Shown: positions 55,231-64,000 of the stretch, piece after piece
Position numbering within the stretch: the stretch's first letter is position 1
How the letters are laid out: the number at the start of each line of letters is the position of its first letter
NCBI GenBank assembly: GCA_963662465.1
Contig: OY759599.1
Location: forward strand, 6,688,001 to 6,752,000
DNA length: 64,000 nt
Direction of reading: 5' to 3'
DNA from: Desulfatiglandales bacterium
Lineage (GTDB): Bacteria > Desulfobacterota > DSM-4660 > Desulfatiglandales > Desulfatiglandaceae
Notes under the pieces: generated by a model
Databases searched by the model: none
What the model saw: the letters and a program-made list of their open reading frames with translations, nothing else
Told to the model about the DNA's origin: nothing
Position numbers and translations under genes: made by a program

Positions 55231-57353
55231 CTCACGGTAGGAACGCCGGTCACCCAGCGCCCCCCGCACAGTCCCGGACGTGCGGTTTTCCCGCATCCGG
55301 TTCCTCGGTTGTACTCGCTTTCGCGCAAAGCATCAGCATTAGCAAAACACCTTTCGTGGCCGGGGTGCCGTCGGTAGCTTCGGTTTGGCGATCCCCAGGC
55401 GATTTATGGCCCGGTTGAAAGCCTTCCAGGTGAAACTTCTCCGCTTACCCCCTCTTCGGTTCAGCCACTTAAACGCACAATCACTCGCCCATCGGTAAAA
55501 ACGCCATAACGAATTGGCGTTCCCCACCACGCTGTAATAGTTGTAATGTCCGCGCAGTTTGCGGTTGAGCGTCTTTATGAACGCAATCCCCTTCAAATGT
55601 CGGTTTTCCTTCACCCATTCCTTGATGCGCCTGCAGGCACCCTGCAGCTTTTTACGGCCGGTGCGCTGCATGACTCTCACCTTTCCCTGTTTGTCATAGG
55701 TCCAGTAGGTCTCAAAACCCAAAAAGACAATCCGCCTGCGCATGCTCGGATCAAAACGACTGAATCGCATCATGGCGGTTTTATCAGGCGCTACACTGAG
55801 GCCAAACTTCAAAAGCCTTTCGGGCAGCACGTGGAAAAACCCTTTTGCCTCTTTTTTGTACTGAAAAGCACAGACAAAATCATCTGCGTACCGAATGATC
55901 ATGGCGGCCCCTTTACAGTGGGGCTTCACCACCTTTTCAAACCATAAGTCAAGGGCAAAATGCAGGTAGACATTGGCCAAAACCGGCGATACAATCCCCC
56001 CTTGGGGAGTACCGCTGTCCGGATGGATAATTTTGCCATCCGTATCCAGAATGCCGGCTTTAAGCCATTTTTGGATCAGATTTAAAAACGGCGCATCATC
56101 AACTCTTTCCATGAGCATTCGCATCAGCCAATCATGGTCCATATGGTCGAAAAAGCCTTTGATATCGGCCTCGACGACATATCCATATGATCCAAACTGA
56201 AGTTCAAAACGCAAATCATTGACAGCGTCTTTTGCGCTTCGGTTGGGCCTGTAACCATAGCTGACATTCAGAAAGTCAGCTTCGAATATGGCTGTCAGGA
56301 GTTTGGCACATGCCAATTGCACCAACCGGTCTTCAAGGGCCGGAATGCCCAAGGGGCGTTGTTTGCCGTTTTCTTTGGGGATGTAACTTCTGCGTACCAG
56401 TTTGGCACGGTAACGTCTGGTTTTCAATCGCTCCGCCAATGACGCGATATTGGCCTCAAGATTTCCTTCGTAGGCCTCGGCCGTCACTTTGTCCACACCA
56501 CTGGCTGCATCCTTATTCAGGTCTTTCCAGCAGGCACGGAGAAACGGCGCGTTCAGACACCGGTAAAGGTCTTGAAAGCGGTGTTTTCCATCAACTTTTG
56601 CCTTAATGGCTATTCCCTGCAGTGAGGTTGGCTCGTATTGTTCCAGCCCTACATTGTCCGGTGCGAGTTTCCTTTGCAGACTGCGTACTTCCGTCAGGTC
56701 CTTCCCCATGTGGTGGGCTTTCCCCACCGCTGAGTAGTATGCCTGATAAGACACCCCATTGGCGTATAGAGGGCCATCGGAGGTCCGATTTTCCTCCCAC
56801 CCGGTTGTTCCTTTCAGCATTTCGGCTGTGTAGTGAACCACTGTTACTTTACCTCACCGTCAGTGTGAAATAAACTCCCTGGAGCCTTTGGGGCTTCCCG
56901 AGTTCTACGGCGCATCTCTTCCTGCATGCCACGGCCTGAGGACTCCGGCGGACCTCCACATCCTCGCCATAAACGGATGCTTCCGTGTTGCCTTCGGTGA
57001 ACGTTCAAACCCTCGGCGTCCGCAATTGCTATTTCGAAGCTGTACCAGCACTTCAGGGTGCGCGATCACCCCTGCGGCCTACAGGATACTCTGCCTACGC
57101 TTAACCCATCTTGTTCGCTGCTTCCACCGTTAGGTGGGGTGAGTCCATCCGCCTATTTGCTCATCCCTGAGCGCGGCTCGTTTCCAACCAGCATATGAAT
57201 GCCGATGTCCTACACCTGACAGACTGAACAACTCCGCCATGGGTCCAAGGCTCGATACGGGTGGGTGGCTAACCCTTACAGAAAGCCATTACTGATTTTC
57301 CTCCCGACAGGGACTTTCACCCTGCAAGATACGCCGAGCTTTCCTCGGCGCGA
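55231..57353 (-). mobile_element. Complete group II intron with RT/maturase, inserted after GTTC of attC4
   Basis: 5' TCGCGCCGAGGAAAGCTCGGCG..GGTGAAAGTCCC; DV GAACCGGATGCGGGAAAACCGCACGTCCGG; DVI ending CCTACCGTGAG; boundaries good to about 1-2 nt. Confidence 0.88.
55339..56841 (-). CDS. ltrA: Group II intron reverse transcriptase/maturase without endonuclease domain; true start uncertain, probably near 56630
   Basis: RPLGIP, ADIKGFFD, PQGGIVSPVLAN, RYADDF, LRGHYNYY. Confidence 0.93.
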   Translation of the reverse strand: MVHYTAEMLKGTTGWEENRTSDGPLYANGVSYQAYYSAVGKAHHMGKDLTEVRSLQRKLAPDNVGLEQYEPTSLQGIAIKAKVDGKHRFQDLYRCLNAPFLRACWKDLNKDAASGVDKVTAEAYEGNLEANIASLAERLKTRRYRAKLVRRSYIPKENGKQRPLGIPALEDRLVQLACAKLLTAIFEADFLNVSYGYRPNRSAKDAVNDLRFELQFGSYGYVVEADIKGFFDHMDHDWLMRMLMERVDDAPFLNLIQKWLKAGILDTDGKIIHPDSGTPQGGIVSPVLANVYLHFALDLWFEKVVKPHCKGAAMIIRYADDFVCAFQYKKEAKGFFHVLPERLLKFGLSVAPDKTAMMRFSRFDPSMRRRIVFLGFETYWTYDKQGKVRVMQRTGRKKLQGACRRIKEWVKENRHLKGIAFIKTLNRKLRGHYNYYSVVGNANSLWRFYRWASDCAFKWLNRRGGKRRSFTWKAFNRAINRLGIAKPKLPTAPRPRKVFC

Positions 57354-57742: not shown

Positions 57743-58918
57743 CTATGCTGCTTGGGCGTGTATCATGTCCTGGACTTTATTGAACCTCGGAAGCTCTCTT
57801 AACTTTTTGACCGGCGTCAATATTTCCAGAGTTATGAGGCGTTTCCCGCAAACAGGGCAACAATCCGGTCGCTCGTCGCTTCGCTGTTGCCAGAGACTCT
57901 GCCAATCCAGGAATCCCAGACTTTCAAGAGGCGGTTGACCCAGTATTTCCCGGCAGAGTGCCAGTTCTTCTTTTGAGCTGTGATGATAGAGTTCGTATGA
58001 ACGCACCATCACGGTATTTGCTAGGGGGACGTGTTGCAGATAGCGGCTGATAAAGGTTTGAATCGGCAGGGAGATGAGTTTTACCTTCTCACGACCGTAA
58101 TTGAAGGTCACGTTCCCGTTTTCAATGCTGTAGATGCGTTTGTTTGAAATTGCTCCGCCTCTCAAGTAACGCGCCAGGTAAATCAACACGCCTTCACCGT
58201 ATGAATAGGTCTCTTTGAGCTTGACGTTCCATTTTTTGCGGCGGCCCAGTTTATTGAAGAGGTTCCGGGCCTGCTGAGGCCCCATACCCTCGGGCAGAAC
58301 CAGTTCGTTCCGATCCAGGGCTTTTCTCAAATAGTAGAGGTACTTGCCTCGAAATACCGCCCGGACGATGCCAAAGGGCAAAAGGAATTTTTTTGATGAA
58401 GCGATCCACTCGCCGGCGATCAGCCCACCGGCCGTTACCAGACAATGCAGATGCGGATGAAAGTCCAGTTTTCGGCTCCAGGTATGCAGTGAGGCGATGA
58501 TGCCGACTTTGCCCCCCAAATGCTTCGGATCTCCAAGGAGTTCGGAAAGGGTTTCAGTGGCGCTTTTGAACAGCAGATTGCCCATAAGCTTGCGGTTCAA
58601 CCGCCATAAGTCGTGCAATTCATCGGAGATGGTGAAAATAACATGGAAATGTTCGGTGTTTAAGATGCGAGCCTTTTGTTTTGCCAGCCAACGTTCCACC
58701 TGGGTAAAAGCGCAGAGGGGGCACATGCGATGTTTACACGAGTTGTACCAGTGCCTTTTGAAGTGACCGTCCGGGCACGCCTGCACGTGACCCCCCAGAG
58801 CAGATGTGCGGCAACTCATCAGACGGTGTGCCGCTTCACGAATATGTTCCGGAAGAAGATGGGTCTGATCATAGAGGGCATAGCCTATAAGAAAGATGCT
58901 CTGAATCGTCGCTTCCAC
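57743..58918 (-). CDS. IS91-family (HUH, Y2) transposase carried as a cassette
   Basis: CRTSALGGH..YNSCKHRMCPLC, HFHVIFT, HTW..HPHLHC, YLARY; AAGGAGG RBS before GTG. Confidence 0.92.
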   Translation of the reverse strand: MEATIQSIFLIGYALYDQTHLLPEHIREAAHRLMSCRTSALGGHVQACPDGHFKRHWYNSCKHRMCPLCAFTQVERWLAKQKARILNTEHFHVIFTISDELHDLWRLNRKLMGNLLFKSATETLSELLGDPKHLGGKVGIIASLHTWSRKLDFHPHLHCLVTAGGLIAGEWIASSKKFLLPFGIVRAVFRGKYLYYLRKALDRNELVLPEGMGPQQARNLFNKLGRRKKWNVKLKETYSYGEGVLIYLARYLRGGAISNKRIYSIENGNVTFNYGREKVKLISLPIQTFISRYLQHVPLANTVMVRSYELYHHSSKEELALCREILGQPPLESLGFLDWQSLWQQRSDERPDCCPVCGKRLITLEILTPVKKLRELPRFNKVQDMIHAQAA

Positions 58919-60246: not shown

Positions 60247-60338
60247 TTATCATCACCCTATTCTCCTATGGGTATGGTAGTTGATGTTACCCATCAACTT
60301 GGAGCTCTCTTTTTCGTAGATACCACAGATGTCCTCCT

Positions 60339-60386
60339 GCCGGGTAGCCGGGGGATGTTGCCATCCCCGAGCCCCCTCAGAACCAC
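60339..60386 (-). mobile_element. 3' end (end of DV plus DVI) of the group II intron split by the recombinase element
   Basis: Minus strand GTGGTTCTGAGGGGGCTCGGGGATGGCAACATCCCCCGGCTACCCGGC. Confidence 0.85.
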
Positions 60387-60775
60387 TATATAATGCCCAT
60401 CAAAACCAGTTTATAACTTGGGTATATTACCCATTTCACCCAAGAACCGGTGAAGAAATTTATGTGGTAGGTACCAGAAACCATCGTGGAGAAACTTGTT
60501 TTGTAACAAAGAAACCTGATGGTCGCCATGAATTGATACCTGCGTGGATGACCAATCCAAAGTATGAAAAGATATCCCTCGGCTCAAAACCCGCTATCGA
60601 AATCAGGGCGCTTAAGAATTTATATTGCTTAATAGTGAATAGAAAAATACCGTTTCCTCCTGATGAAGTCAATTCGAAAACAAGGAGGAAAGATGACGAA
60701 ACAAAAATATCATCAACTTCGGCTTTGGGATTATTTACCATCACCGATCGAAATTCCAATAGAAACACGAAATAG
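60387..60775 (+). CDS. Headless accessory ORF of the LSR element (resembles Y4bD/DUF5372-type proteins)
   Basis: YNAH..YPFHP.TG....IPAWMT motif; the natural RBS+ATG appear to lie at 63516-63531; family assignment is from memory of the motif. Confidence 0.7.
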
Positions 60776-60854
60776 ATTGATTGATTTCCTTGCAGAGCTT
60801 CTGTCAGGTTTCTGGCAAAATTCTGAGGGTAACAGAAATAGAAAAGAGAAGTAG
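60693..60854 (+). CDS. Small accessory ORF (MTKQKYHQLRLW...LAELL)
   Basis: AAGGAGG RBS; lies upstream of the LSR. Confidence 0.6.
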   Translation: MTKQKYHQLRLWDYLPSPIEIPIETRNRLIDFLAELLSGFWQNSEGNRNRKEK

Positions 60855-61053
60855 TTTCACTAACGTAAAATCGCGGTCTGATATTGGAAGCAGTCAAGAG
60901 ACTGGAGTTGTTGAAGCAAGCAGCTTAATCCGACTCAGAAAAATCGTAACTATAAATCATAAATAGCTTATTTTCCGATAGAAATAGGTGTTTAATTGAA
61001 AAACGTACGCGGTATTCAAAAATATTGGACGAATTTGAAGGTGAAAAGGAGCG

Positions 61054-61260
61054 ATGAAAATGAGAGGTGGGAGTCGAAAAGGCGCTGGTCGAAAAAGGAG
61101 TCCTGAACATCTGAGGCGTATCCCCGTCACGATTCGGTTACGGAAGTGGATGGTTTCACAGATCAAAATGAAAGGCGAGATAGGGTATTTGATTGAACTC
61201 GAATTAGCGACGAAAAAGGGTTTTCTCGACTTACCAGATGATTATCTGGTCGGAAGCTGA
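61054..61260 (+). CDS. Small basic putative DNA-binding protein
   Basis: AAGGAG RBS; GGSRKGAGRK motif then VTIRL. Confidence 0.6.
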   Translation: MKMRGGSRKGAGRKRSPEHLRRIPVTIRLRKWMVSQIKMKGEIGYLIELELATKKGFLDLPDDYLVGS

Positions 61261-61428
61261 CTAAGGTGCGGTTATGGTCGCTCTTTTAATGGATATTTCG
61301 GCAGGAGCCACCGGAGCCTTCTATGACCTCGTCGCAGCTTACAATTACTCATATGGGGGTCAAAATTCGGTTGTCGCAAGAGGTCAATTTTCGGTTGACA
61401 TTTCGAGAAAAGAAAGGTGGAAATGAGC

Positions 61429-63510
61429 ATGAGCAATAAAATCAATGCTGAACATATTAGTCGGGAAGCATGTATATATATCCGTCAGTCAACACCGGGC
61501 CAAGTTCTACAGCATCGTGAAAGCCAACTTTTACAATATGGCTTGGTAGAAAGGGCAAAAGAATTAGGATGGAACGAGAAAAACATATGGATGATAGATA
61601 GTGATTTGGGAATAACTGCATCGGGATGCGTTGACAGAAAAGGATTCCAGAATCTTCTTTCATCTGTGTGTGAAGGAAGAATAGGGGGTATTTTCTCGAT
61701 TGAATCATCGAGGTTGGCCCGCAACGGTCGAGAGTGGCATACGTTGCTTGAGATCTGTGCACTTAAAAAAACGGTTCTTGTAGATCAAGGAGCTGTTTAT
61801 GACCTAAACGTGTCAAATGATCGTTTGCTCCTGGGCTTAAAGGGAGAAATGAGTGCAATGGAATTGAGCCTATTAAAGGAGCGTTCTCAGGCGGCAATAC
61901 AACAAAAAGCGAAGCGGGGAGAATTATATCTTACTGTACCGGCAGCCTATATAAAGACTAGGGATAATAAGCTGAAAAAGAATCCTGACAAACGAATTCA
62001 AGAAGTCATTGATTTGGTATTCACGAAATTCAAGGAATATGGTACTCTTCGTCGGGTGTATCATTGGTTTTTAGATGAACAGATTGAGATTGCTGTTGTT
62101 TCCAGCGGTAAAGGGGAACGTAGGATAGAGTGGAAACTACCGTCTGCTCATACCTTGTCGCATATAGTGAACAACCCAATTTACGCCGGCGCCTACGTCT
62201 ATGGCCGGACTAAAACAGAGGTAACTTTTGAAAATGGGCGCAAGCGACTGAGGAAGGGTATTCGTAAGGAACAAAAGGATTGGGACGTTTTAATATTGGA
62301 TCACCATGAAGGTTACATCACATGGGAAGAGTACCAGTATAACATGGAGATACTAACTCAAAATACAAATAAGAAAAGGCCGGTGGTGAGAGGAGCTGTT
62401 CGCGGAGGAAAGGCATTGCTTGGAGGTTTGTTAAGATGCGGTCATTGCGGTAGAAAGTTAATTGTACGATACCAAGGCCGTAATGGAACTCATAAACGTT
62501 ATGAGTGTAGCCGCAAACGAGGTAACGAGACAGGAAAGGCGTGTATATCATTTGGTGGATTCCGTGTTGACCGGGCTGTTACGGATTTTCTTTTGAAAGT
62601 ATTATCACCGATAGGATTAGAAGCTTCTTTAGAGGCGATAAAGAAAATCAACCATGAATCGGATTCAGTGAAACGGCAACGGGAACTGGAGTTGGAACAA
62701 GCGCGTTATGAAGCTTTACGGGCAAAACGTCAATACAATGCAGTAGACCCTGATAATCGTTTGGTAGCATCTACATTGGAGAAGGATTGGAATGACGCTC
62801 TTGTTAAGGTAGCAAGATTGGAGAATGAGGTTGACGCCATGGGATCGAACACCCCTTCGCTTTCCCCTGAGGAGGAGACTGAGATCAGAGATCTATCAAA
62901 AGATTTACCTCGTGTATGGAATGATCCGTTTTGCTCTTTGGATTTAAAGAAGCGTATAATCCGGACGGTTATCAAAGAGATCGTTGTTTATTTGGAAGAT
63001 CAAAAGATCAAATTAATCATTCACTGGGAAGGGGGTGAGCATACGGAATTGGAGGTATTGAAGAATAAGTCTTCCAGTTACCCATTGAAAACCGATGTTG
63101 ATACAAAAAAGATAATATCCGATTTGGCTAGAATTATGCCTGATAAACACATCGTGGCCTTTCTCAACCGTGTGGGTACAAAGACTACAAAGGGATATAC
63201 CTGGAATCCGGTAAGGTTGCGTTCATTTCGAAATAGGCATAATATCCCTGTATATCATGAAGGAGAGAGGCAGCGACGAGAAGAATATACGGTAGCTGAA
63301 GCAAGCGAAAGGCTGGGTATTGGCAGCACCAAAGTTTGGAGACTTATACAACATGAGATTCTACCCGCCAAGCGAGTATGTTCCGGTGCTCCATGGATCA
63401 TTTCAAAAAAGGACCTTGAATCTGAAGTGATAAAAAAGGCAGCTCATTCCGGGCTTCCAAAGAGCCCGCTTTCAAGAAACTCAAAACAACAAGTCTTTAA
63501 TTTTCAATAA
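61429..63510 (+). CDS. Large serine recombinase with Zn-ribbon, coiled coil and C-terminal HTH
   Basis: YIRQST catalytic Ser, ESSRLARN, NPIYAG, LRCGHCG..YEC, YTVAEASERLGI. Confidence 0.95.
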   Translation: MSNKINAEHISREACIYIRQSTPGQVLQHRESQLLQYGLVERAKELGWNEKNIWMIDSDLGITASGCVDRKGFQNLLSSVCEGRIGGIFSIESSRLARNGREWHTLLEICALKKTVLVDQGAVYDLNVSNDRLLLGLKGEMSAMELSLLKERSQAAIQQKAKRGELYLTVPAAYIKTRDNKLKKNPDKRIQEVIDLVFTKFKEYGTLRRVYHWFLDEQIEIAVVSSGKGERRIEWKLPSAHTLSHIVNNPIYAGAYVYGRTKTEVTFENGRKRLRKGIRKEQKDWDVLILDHHEGYITWEEYQYNMEILTQNTNKKRPVVRGAVRGGKALLGGLLRCGHCGRKLIVRYQGRNGTHKRYECSRKRGNETGKACISFGGFRVDRAVTDFLLKVLSPIGLEASLEAIKKINHESDSVKRQRELELEQARYEALRAKRQYNAVDPDNRLVASTLEKDWNDALVKVARLENEVDAMGSNTPSLSPEEETEIRDLSKDLPRVWNDPFCSLDLKKRIIRTVIKEIVVYLEDQKIKLIIHWEGGEHTELEVLKNKSSSYPLKTDVDTKKIISDLARIMPDKHIVAFLNRVGTKTTKGYTWNPVRLRSFRNRHNIPVYHEGERQRREEYTVAEASERLGIGSTKVWRLIQHEILPAKRVCSGAPWIISKKDLESEVIKKAAHSGLPKSPLSRNSKQQVFNFQ

Positions 63511-63540
63511 CGTACGGAGGTGTGTATTATGCCGCTATTA

Positions 63541-64000
63541 CCCTCAGAACCACGCATGAGACTTTCACCTCACGTGGCTCAAGCCCCCGAAAAGGTTTCC
63601 CTGGTGGGGATTCCCGCAGATTTGCATCCACTTCACGTTACAGGCCGGCTGTCAGAATAGCCAAAGGCGCACGGGGCGCACCAGCCTCAAGGGCCGTCAT
63701 TCGCCCGTTTCACTGGCTGCTTTCCCCGCTTTCATCTGATTCCTCCGGTGTTCACGTGATCGGGCACCGCGCTGAACGTCTGCCTCCTTACGGAGCCGGG
63801 AATGTTTCACCCGGTATCCGGGCCATTACAGCCCGGCATTCGCTTCTTTCAGCCTCCTATTCCGGCCCGCCAACAGCATGCCTTGCGGTTAGCCTGCCCC
63901 CAAAAGGGGCGACGGGACCGGGTTTCCACGTTCCGCATAGTTGATCCAATGGATGACTTAGGTGCGCCCTCTACGCCGGTGGTACAACAGTTCCGTGCAG
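63541..64000 (-). mobile_element. ORF-less group II intron (DV and upstream domains; 5' end beyond the window)
   Basis: DV GAGCCACGTGAGGTGAAAGTCTCATGCGTGGTTC; only a 12-aa mini-ORF with RBS (63735-63697) about 115 nt before DV. Confidence 0.82.

What the first reader, a model, noticed from the sequence alone, without database searches (positions are those of the whole stretch)
60387..63553. Accessory gene completed only on excision: start codon at the right end, body at the left end
Seen: after the LSR stop come GGAGG (63516-63520), 8 nt, and ATG (63529). Joining the ends through the 13-bp core gives ATG CCG CTA TTA CCC TCA GAA CCA CTA TAT AAT GCC CAT, a 137-aa ORF in frame with 60387-60775. 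In the integrated state that ATG reads a short peptide into intron antisense. The left ORF then has only a flank-derived ATG (60329) with no nearby SD. Inference: a recombination-state switch that expresses a directionality or targeting factor only from the circle.
Basis: partly seen in the sequence, partly recalled or inferred. Interest (0 to 1): 0.88.

Follow-up and report, generated by a model that had tools for sequence, protein, structure and literature searches.

The report
Mobile element gene completed by excision
A small jumping DNA element keeps the start signal of one of its own genes at its right end and the rest of that gene at its left end, so the gene can be read only after the element has cut itself out and closed into a circle; the arrangement recurs in distant bacteria, but the circle and the protein have not been observed.

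Summary
Window 60374-63553 is a 3.2-kb IS-like large-serine-recombinase (LSR) element. It has 7 copies in this genome, 99% identical, inserted at the DV/DVI boundary of group II introns, and empty introns are present. Its left end carries the body of a DUF5372 gene with no ATG/GTG/TTG before the conserved motif. SD and ATG lie at the right end, behind the LSR stop. Joining the ends gives a 137-aa frame in 7 of 7 copies. The same in-frame split holds in four plasmid element types whose ends I fixed from second copies or empty sites (LSR 35-47% identical). It also holds in 33 of 37 loci with both ends; the other 4 were ambiguous. Against pure DNA symmetry, the SD is not mirrored, the linker length changes only by whole codons, and one subfamily has its ATG outside the repeat. 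Not shown: the circle, the transcript, the protein or its function. Intron targeting is clade-specific. My searches found no description of this arrangement.

The parts
60374..63553 (+). IS-like LSR element, core to core (3180 bp; excised unit 3167 bp)
   Evidence: 7 copies at 99.2-100% with different flanks, one of them interrupted by another element
60374..60386 (+). attL shared core; crossover inferred at 60376-60377
   Evidence: repeat D19; empty sites; copies c3 and c6; centre of attP symmetry
63541..63553 (+). attR shared core; crossover inferred at 63543-63544
63516..63520 (+). Shine-Dalgarno GGAGG of the split gene, 5 nt after the LSR stop
   Evidence: sequence; anti-SD pairing stronger than at the mirrored left-arm position in 23 of 26 loci
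63522..63531 (+). right arm of the attP inverted repeat, ending in the start ATG (63529-63531)
   Evidence: 7 of 10 complementary to 60389-60398 here, 9 of 10 in L027/L100; 24 nt apart on the circle
63529..63544 (+). head of the split DUF5372 gene (start codon and about 4 codons); integrated, it runs on as a 43-aa frame to 63660
60389..60398 (+). left arm of the attP inverted repeat, which is also codons 10-12 of the split gene
   Evidence: no synonymous change in these codons
60378..60775 (+). body of the split gene: DUF5372-like protein, SH3-like barrel plus helix; conserved motif at 60428-60442
   Evidence: PF17342 E 5e-4, below cut-off; 62 of 113 homologues hit PF17342; Atlas 0.92; model pLDDT 86; third-position excess
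60693..60854 (+). small conserved ORF (53 aa from the SD-led ATG; 63 aa as listed from 60663), overlapping the DUF5372 tail; adjoins the LSR start in relatives
   Evidence: no family
60870..61400 (.). lineage-specific insert (limits approximate) with a 68-aa ORF (61054-61260) and tandem 16-nt repeats at 61358-61397; present in all 7 copies, absent from 5 of 5 relatives compared
61429..63510 (+). large serine recombinase, 693 aa (listed from GTG 61417 as 697 aa): resolvase, recombinase, Zn-ribbon, C-terminal HTH_17
60339..60375 (-). 3' piece (domain VI) of the interrupted group II intron
   Evidence: shared left flank of copies starts at 60339; contiguous with DV at empty sites
63545..64000 (-). 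domain V and upstream part of the interrupted group II intron (continues past the window)
   Evidence: Rfam RF00029 63512-63582; D1-D4-7 model further on
60329..60331 (+). flank-derived in-frame ATG, outside the intron, particular to this copy, no SD

Best explanation
The element is a minimal LSR transposon of three genes arranged as a circular operon and opened at attP inside the DUF5372 gene, about 4 codons after its start. SHOWN from sequence: the ends, the target, the split, and its conservation in frame. INFERRED from LSR biology: the LSR excises the element as a circle and re-inserts it. On the circle, ribosomes finishing the LSR meet an SD-ATG (in distant members an ATGA/TGATG overlap with the LSR stop) and read through attP into the body. 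Integration cuts head from body, so the protein is off in the resting state, irrespective of read-through transcription from the host. INFERRED, least secure: the small SH3-like protein is a circle-stage cofactor of the LSR that drives the circle towards insertion at a new site, or damps further excision. It is unlikely to be a classical excision RDF, because it appears only after excision. I put the circle-only translation at about 0.8 and this particular function at about 0.45 given that.
For: Ends: 7 copies and 3 empty introns. The join is in frame in 7 of 7 copies; 4 of 7 have no ATG/GTG/TTG upstream before a stop, and none lies between the core and the conserved motif in the window copy. 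Ends fixed independently and join in frame: Rhizobium T1473, 3 copies, and S. meliloti RRI128, 2 copies plus empty site; S. medicae, 2 full copies, and R. leguminosarum Vaf10, 5 empty sites; read-outs. Survey: of 68 loci, 19 were dropped for an incomplete LSR, 11 lacked the motif by pattern, 1 was cut, and 37 had both ends. Of those 37, 33 had a unique mirror arm and all 33 were in frame, against 34% for shuffled arms. The 33 fall in 7 groups at 60% LSR identity. Arm-to-motif distances are 36, 39, 45 or 57 nt, and 0 of 26 distinct segments have a stop in frame, against 12 and 20 in the other frames (the arm itself contains TAA, which inflates one control frame). The SD is on the right arm only in 23 of 26 loci. 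In L069/L015 the best-scoring geometry puts SD-ATG 17 codons upstream of the repeat and still in frame. The body is under coding selection and folds with confidence. Database N-termini are erratic, 1-201 aa before the motif, and often translate intron DVI.
Against: No attP junction in 4 runs of contigs or in 132 held sequences, so circle, transcript and protein are unobserved. The ATG is part of the inverted repeat, and the mirror codons show no synonymous change, so ATG and spacing are partly explained by DNA constraint. Loci are related: 22 of the 33 belong to one clade, and there are only a handful of independent length changes. Three loci of the T1473 group have no SD. Flank-derived starts occur: copy c5 has an in-frame GTG with SD 312 nt upstream, c1 an ATG, c3 a TTG, and L153 an ATG 87 nt before the motif. 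Four loci were ambiguous, plus L110, and the longest shared string in L069 and L068 gives an out-of-frame join. Called proteins are not enriched for the predicted start: motif at residue 10 in 5 of 90, at residue 11 in 11 of 90. No consensus promoter excess in the element. Nothing ties the protein to the LSR but gene order.
Confidence: 0.6

Rival explanations
1. Symmetry artefact: the ATG is only the mirror of CAT in the recombinase-binding repeat. DUF5372 is translated in the integrated state from a non-canonical start near the left arm or from host read-through, and there is no switch.
For: ATG and CAT/TAT mirror each other at a fixed 24 nt. Mirror codons vary only at first position. An ATA lies in frame at 60413. 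Occasional flank starts. No SD in 3 of 26 loci.
Against: The SD is unmirrored in 23 of 26. The linker changes by whole codons without stops. ATGA/TGATG coupling to the LSR stop occurs in distant members. L069/L015 keep an in-frame SD-ATG outside the repeat. No conserved internal start exists.
Confidence: 0.1
2. The split is real, but the protein is an excision-promoting RDF acting in trans: a rare spontaneous circle makes it and triggers excision of the other copies (positive feedback, bursts of transposition).
For: RDFs are small and bind the LSR's DBD2/coiled coil (PMC12286644, passages), and share no common fold (PMC11795197, start of abstract). Elements are multi-copy.
Against: The first excision must occur without it. 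The LSR carries its own excisionase-like HTH (TIGR01764/PF12728), and the neighbouring small ORF, which keeps its own SD, is a better-placed RDF candidate.
Confidence: 0.15
3. The protein is a targeting factor that binds intron RNA/DNA or other mobile-element sequence and brings the circle to it.
For: 19 of 24 readable right flanks in the close clade are group II DV (many near-duplicates). The fold resembles KOW/SH3 barrels, some of which bind nucleic acid (Z at most 5.0).
Against: Distant members with the same split gene insert elsewhere, e.g. within IS66 tnpB. attP resembles attB around the core, which suffices for LSR-directed targeting. The fold match is weak and shows no function.
Confidence: 0.1
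4. What matters is the act of translation: ribosomes crossing attP couple to the overlapping small ORF and so to the LSR, raising recombinase output from the circle, and the protein itself is secondary.
For: The three genes overlap or adjoin in relatives.
Against: The body shows purifying selection and invariant residues. This lineage has about 540 bp inserted between the small ORF and the LSR, yet has 7 near-identical copies.
Confidence: 0.05

Closest known systems
Archaeal SSV-type ('suicidal') tyrosine integrases (PMC8371274, passages)
   Same: attP lies inside one of the element's own genes, so integration splits it into N and C parts.
   Different: There the split gene is the recombinase itself, a tyrosine enzyme. 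Here the serine recombinase stays whole and an accessory gene loses only its SD, start and about 4 codons.
Integration-dependent immunity of mycobacteriophages (PMC9934374, passages)
   Same: attP lies within a non-integrase gene, and recombination state sets that gene's activity.
   Different: There integration removes a C-terminal degradation tag and turns the repressor on in the prophage. Here integration removes the N-terminus and turns the gene off; there is no phage and no repressor.
Tn916 circle-dependent transcription (PMC11658703, passages); junction promoters of Tn4451/TnpX and IS circles (recalled)
   Same: Genes at the left end are expressed only after circularisation.
   Different: Those switches act on transcription across intact genes. 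Here the reading frame and translation start are what is cut.
TndX/TnpX-like and multi-targeting LSRs (PMC4430133 and PMC10083194, passages)
   Same: An LSR-moved element with many insertion sites; TndX prefers a conserved sequence. The TnpX domain is among the PDB sequence hits (E 2e-6).
   Different: No DUF4368 was found in this LSR, which has a C-terminal HTH_17 instead. The element is about 2.6-3.2 kb with no conjugation or resistance genes, and the passages read mention no split accessory gene.
skin/gin-type gene-intervening LSR elements (PMC5025042, PMC5595907; search listing and start of abstract only)
   Same: LSR excision restores a reading frame.
   Different: There the restored gene is the host's, at attB. 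Here it is the element's own, at attP.

Membership tests
Large serine recombinase | Resolvase catalytic domain plus recombinase and Zn-ribbon DNA-binding domains | tested here: met
   PF00239, PF07508, PF13408 above cut-off; SPbeta integrase chains are the top PDB sequence hits
LSR-moved integrative element | Defined ends with shared core; filled and empty target sites | tested here: met
   empty-site joints also in public contigs
LSR-moved integrative element | Excised circle with attP junction | tested here: inconclusive
   no back-joint in 4 runs of contigs, which drop rare forms; none in 132 held sequences
DUF5372 (PF17342) | Score over Pfam's cut-off of 25 bits | tested here: inconclusive
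   20.4-21.2 bits, E 3e-4 to 5e-4; 62 of 113 aligned sequences hit at E<=0.01; Atlas neighbours are DUF5372 clusters: a diverged member
Recombination directionality factor | Binds the cognate LSR (DBD2/coiled coil) | not tested
   no complex prediction was obtained
Recombination directionality factor | Activates attL x attR and inhibits attP x attB | not testable with these tools
   definition from PMC12286644 passages; needs a recombination assay
SSV-type suicidal integrase | attP within the integrase gene; tyrosine recombinase | tested here: not met
   serine enzyme; LSR frame intact in 6 of 7 copies, the seventh interrupted by another element; att core lies 30 nt past its stop
Integration-dependent immunity system | attP within a repressor gene near its 3' end; tag removed on integration | tested here: not met
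   the split is at codon 5 of a gene with no HTH or repressor family hit
DUF4368-type multi-targeting LSR clade | DUF4368 domain (in 63% of that clade) | tested here: not met
   no DUF4368 hit at E<=0.1; placement on that tree not tested
Group II intron (target) | DV-DVI at the 3' end and D1-D4 elements | tested here: met
   RF00029 57-68 bits at two empty sites, 45.8 at filled ones; D1-D4-7 79 bits

The most novel reading that the evidence does not exclude
A widespread, undescribed family of minimal serine-recombinase transposons runs as a circular three-gene operon. In it the recombinase-binding repeat of attP is also the translation start of a new class of recombination cofactor (DUF5372), which is made only by the excised circle and pushes it to integrate: a pro-integration counterpart of the RDF. 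One clade uses this to parasitise the catalytic end of group II introns.
Probability: 0.3. Interest if true: 0.88.

Novelty: new variant of a known kind. Interest (0 to 1): 0.72.

Why it matters
It gives DUF5372 a gene structure and a testable role, and explains why databases give it erratic, flank-derived N-termini or miss it. It adds a translation-level state switch to the known ways in which mobile DNA senses whether it is excised. For LSR engineering, it names a large family (4880 proteins at E<=1e-40 among 8000 scored) with compact, readable att sites. Cofactors of such a family would be missed by RDF screens that use annotated genes of the integrated element. The close clade inserts at the DV/DVI boundary of group II introns, a parasite-of-parasite strategy that probably disables splicing (inference).

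Tried and rejected
Reads: contigs of 4 public runs (2 RNA, 1 probable DNA, 1 of unknown kind) showed only empty-site joints and no attP joint; contigs show presence, not absence. No relative of the split protein in viral contigs. Stop codons in the four head codons: 0 of 11 distinct arms in every frame, uninformative. Called proteins starting at the predicted position (P0025, P0030, P0074, P0130, P0148): suggestive, two on contigs of about 2.7 kb, but not enriched and their DNA was not seen. Junction or internal sigma-70 promoter: 6 sites against 6.5 expected. Fold searches: no Foldseek match at E<=0.001 in PDB or BFVD; best Z 5.0 to SH3/KOW barrels; PDB sequence search gave only an implausible weak hit. 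PHROGs, NCBIfam and Atlas gave nothing for the small ORF. No LSR-DUF5372 complex prediction was obtained, so binding is open. A 15-nt inverted copy of the core at 60821-60835 is not seen in five relatives: rejected as a guide. A pseudo-domain VI formed at attR depends on the SD's complement and is not kept in all relatives: not pursued. First automated pass mis-picked several ATGs and was redone with one fixed consensus; L053 and L011 right ends remained faulty or cut, though their left-arm frame does not depend on that. L108 and L109 (distant LSRs) showed no DUF5372 by profile, so the split gene is not universal among related LSRs.
Full report
OBSERVATION. Every coordinate in the finding is correct. 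The LSR stop is at 63508-63510, GGAGG at 63516-63520 and ATG at 63529, and a 13-bp direct repeat lies at 60374-60386 and 63541-63553. Joining the ends in a script gives a 137-aa frame ending at 60775. In the integrated state the ATG reads 43 codons into the flank.

THE ELEMENT. The own genome holds 7 copies of the 3180-bp unit at 99.2-100% identity, with different flanks; one is interrupted by a 2.9-kb repeat. Three empty sites show the flanks contiguous. The flanks are the two sides of a group II intron's 3' end on the minus strand. Domain V is on the right (Rfam RF00029) and domain VI on the left; two empty sites score 57 and 68 bits, filled ones 45.8. Gene order is a DUF5372-like body, a 53-aa ORF, then a 693-aa LSR with an extra C-terminal HTH. 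This lineage also carries about 540 bp between the small ORF and the LSR that 5 of 5 relatives compared lack.

WITHIN THE GENOME. The join is 137 aa in 7 of 7 copies. What the right ATG reads when integrated varies with the flank (43, 8 or 11 aa). Upstream of the body, 4 of 7 copies have no ATG/GTG/TTG before a stop. c1 has an ATG without SD and c3 a TTG. c5 has three starts, one of them a GTG with an SD 312 nt away, which is a real exception. In the window copy no canonical start lies between the core and the conserved motif at 60428-60442, and the first internal ATG is at 60548, well inside the domain.

HOMOLOGUES WITH INDEPENDENT ENDS. I fixed ends from second copies or empty sites in four plasmid element types whose LSRs are 35-47% identical to this one: Rhizobium T1473 (3 copies) and S. 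meliloti RRI128 (2 copies and an empty site), S. medicae (2 full copies) and R. leguminosarum Vaf10 (5 empty sites). In all four, a start codon just behind or overlapping the LSR stop joins the DUF5372 body in frame. T1473 and Vaf10 are the same subfamily. Copies in two other plasmids had identical flanks and were uninformative.

attP ANATOMY AND THE MAIN CAVEAT. attP is a roughly 10-bp inverted repeat whose right arm ends in ATG and whose left arm begins with the mirror CAT/TAT, 24 nt apart, with the crossover at the centre. So the ATG and the eight-codon spacing are partly fixed by recombinase binding, and the mirror codons show no synonymous change. Conservation of the ATG alone therefore proves little.

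Four results go beyond symmetry. (a) Of 68 loci, 37 had both ends (19 dropped for an incomplete LSR, 11 without the motif by pattern, 1 cut). In 33 the mirror arm was unique, and it was in frame with the body in 33 of 33, against 34% for shuffled arms; 4 were ambiguous. The distance from arm to motif is 36, 39, 45 or 57 nt, and 0 of 26 distinct segments carry a stop in frame. The 33 are not independent: 7 groups at 60% LSR identity, 22 loci in one. (b) The SD is not mirrored: anti-SD pairing has a median of -10.9 on the right against -2.9 kcal/mol at the mirrored place, stronger in 23 of 26; the three exceptions are the T1473 group. (c) Distant members overlap the start with the LSR stop as ATGA or TGATG. 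(d) In L069, with L015 sharing the right end, the best-scoring geometry has the repeat ending in CTG and an SD-ATG 17 codons further upstream, in frame (score 18 against 15). That boundary is inferred, and a different join by the longest shared string is out of frame.

THE PROTEIN IS REAL AS A GENE. Among 19 close sequences the body differs 3067/2489/5063 times at codon positions 1/2/3, with more synonymous than non-synonymous single changes (pairwise counts, not independent). There are 298 representatives at E<=0.001. In 145 of the 161 proteins held, the motif lies 1-201 residues from the called start, and several N-termini are translations of intron domain VI, as expected if callers borrow starts from flanks. 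In 401 genomes of the phylum PF17342 was found in 6; 4 lie on the same contigs as LSR matches and 2 are at contig ends. The model has pLDDT 86, a small beta-barrel plus helix, with only weak likeness to SH3/KOW folds (Z at most 5.0).

WHAT IS NOT SHOWN. No attP joint appeared in contigs of 4 runs or in 132 held sequences. No transcript, protein or binding partner was seen, and no promoter stands out. Five called proteins begin exactly at the predicted start, but the neighbouring position has eleven.

MECHANISM. Most likely the element is a circular operon opened inside its accessory gene. Integration decapitates the gene, which keeps it silent even under host read-through; excision restores it and couples it to LSR termination. 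Since it appears only after excision, a role in driving re-insertion or limiting further excision fits better than a classical RDF (inference). The LSR's own excisionase-like HTH or the small ORF could serve excision. Targeting need not involve the protein. In the close clade 19 of 24 readable right flanks are intron DV, whereas distant members sit in other mobile genes such as IS66 tnpB.

LITERATURE. Ten searches of the held library: DUF5372, 0 papers; y4bD, a name I recall for this family, 0; group II intron with serine recombinase and domain V, 0. Searches listed nothing whose title or abstract start describes this element or switch. I read passages of PMC10083194, PMC12286644, PMC4430133, PMC9934374, PMC8371274, PMC3925955, PMC11658703 and PMC5001619, and no whole text. 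I opened no supplement; the att-site tables of PMC10083194 may list members. Subscription papers and ISfinder were not searchable. The principle of attP inside an element's own gene is known (archaeal suicidal integrases; mycobacteriophage repressors), as is circle-dependent transcription (Tn916). Loss of only the translation start of an accessory gene, built into the recombinase-binding repeat of an LSR transposon family, I did not find described.

VERDICT. The feature is real, conserved and well beyond this window. It is a new variant of a known kind of switch, and its function is open. Interest 0.72.

Noticed in passing
window 63545-64000 and G000 6751554-6752410: The host intron appears ORF-less (about 0.8-0.9 kb; no RT match within 1.5 kb on the DV side of any of the 7 copies) and abuts an 80-bp repeat that recurs dozens of times in the genome and looks like an integron cassette site (resemblance recalled).
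   Followed up: partly
L006 (copy c6, G000 6826406): The right end of c6 is fused just after the crossover to the middle of an IS91 transposase gene (window equivalent 58024), suggesting a rearrangement at a secondary site.
   Followed up: partly
window 60870-61400: Lineage-specific insert with tandem 16-nt repeats resembling an IS21 end (recalled) and a 68-aa ORF whose relatives occur over 30 times in the genome, one of them just upstream of an istB-like gene; both ends recur together in G407.
   Followed up: partly
window 63512-63582 (-): At attR the complement of the SD region can stand in for domain VI well enough to pass Rfam's threshold (45.8 bits); pairing is not kept in all relatives.
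   Followed up: partly
L031:1270-1719: A subfamily (L031; by spacing also L107, L020, L022) carries an extra helix-turn-helix gene between DUF5372 and the small ORF.
   Followed up: no
L044, left end: Both flanks look like intron domain V in opposite orientations, which may be an inversion or a mis-assembly.
   Followed up: no
window 55339-57146 (-): A separate RT-encoding group II intron and an IS91 transposase (57743-58918) lie nearby.
   Followed up: no
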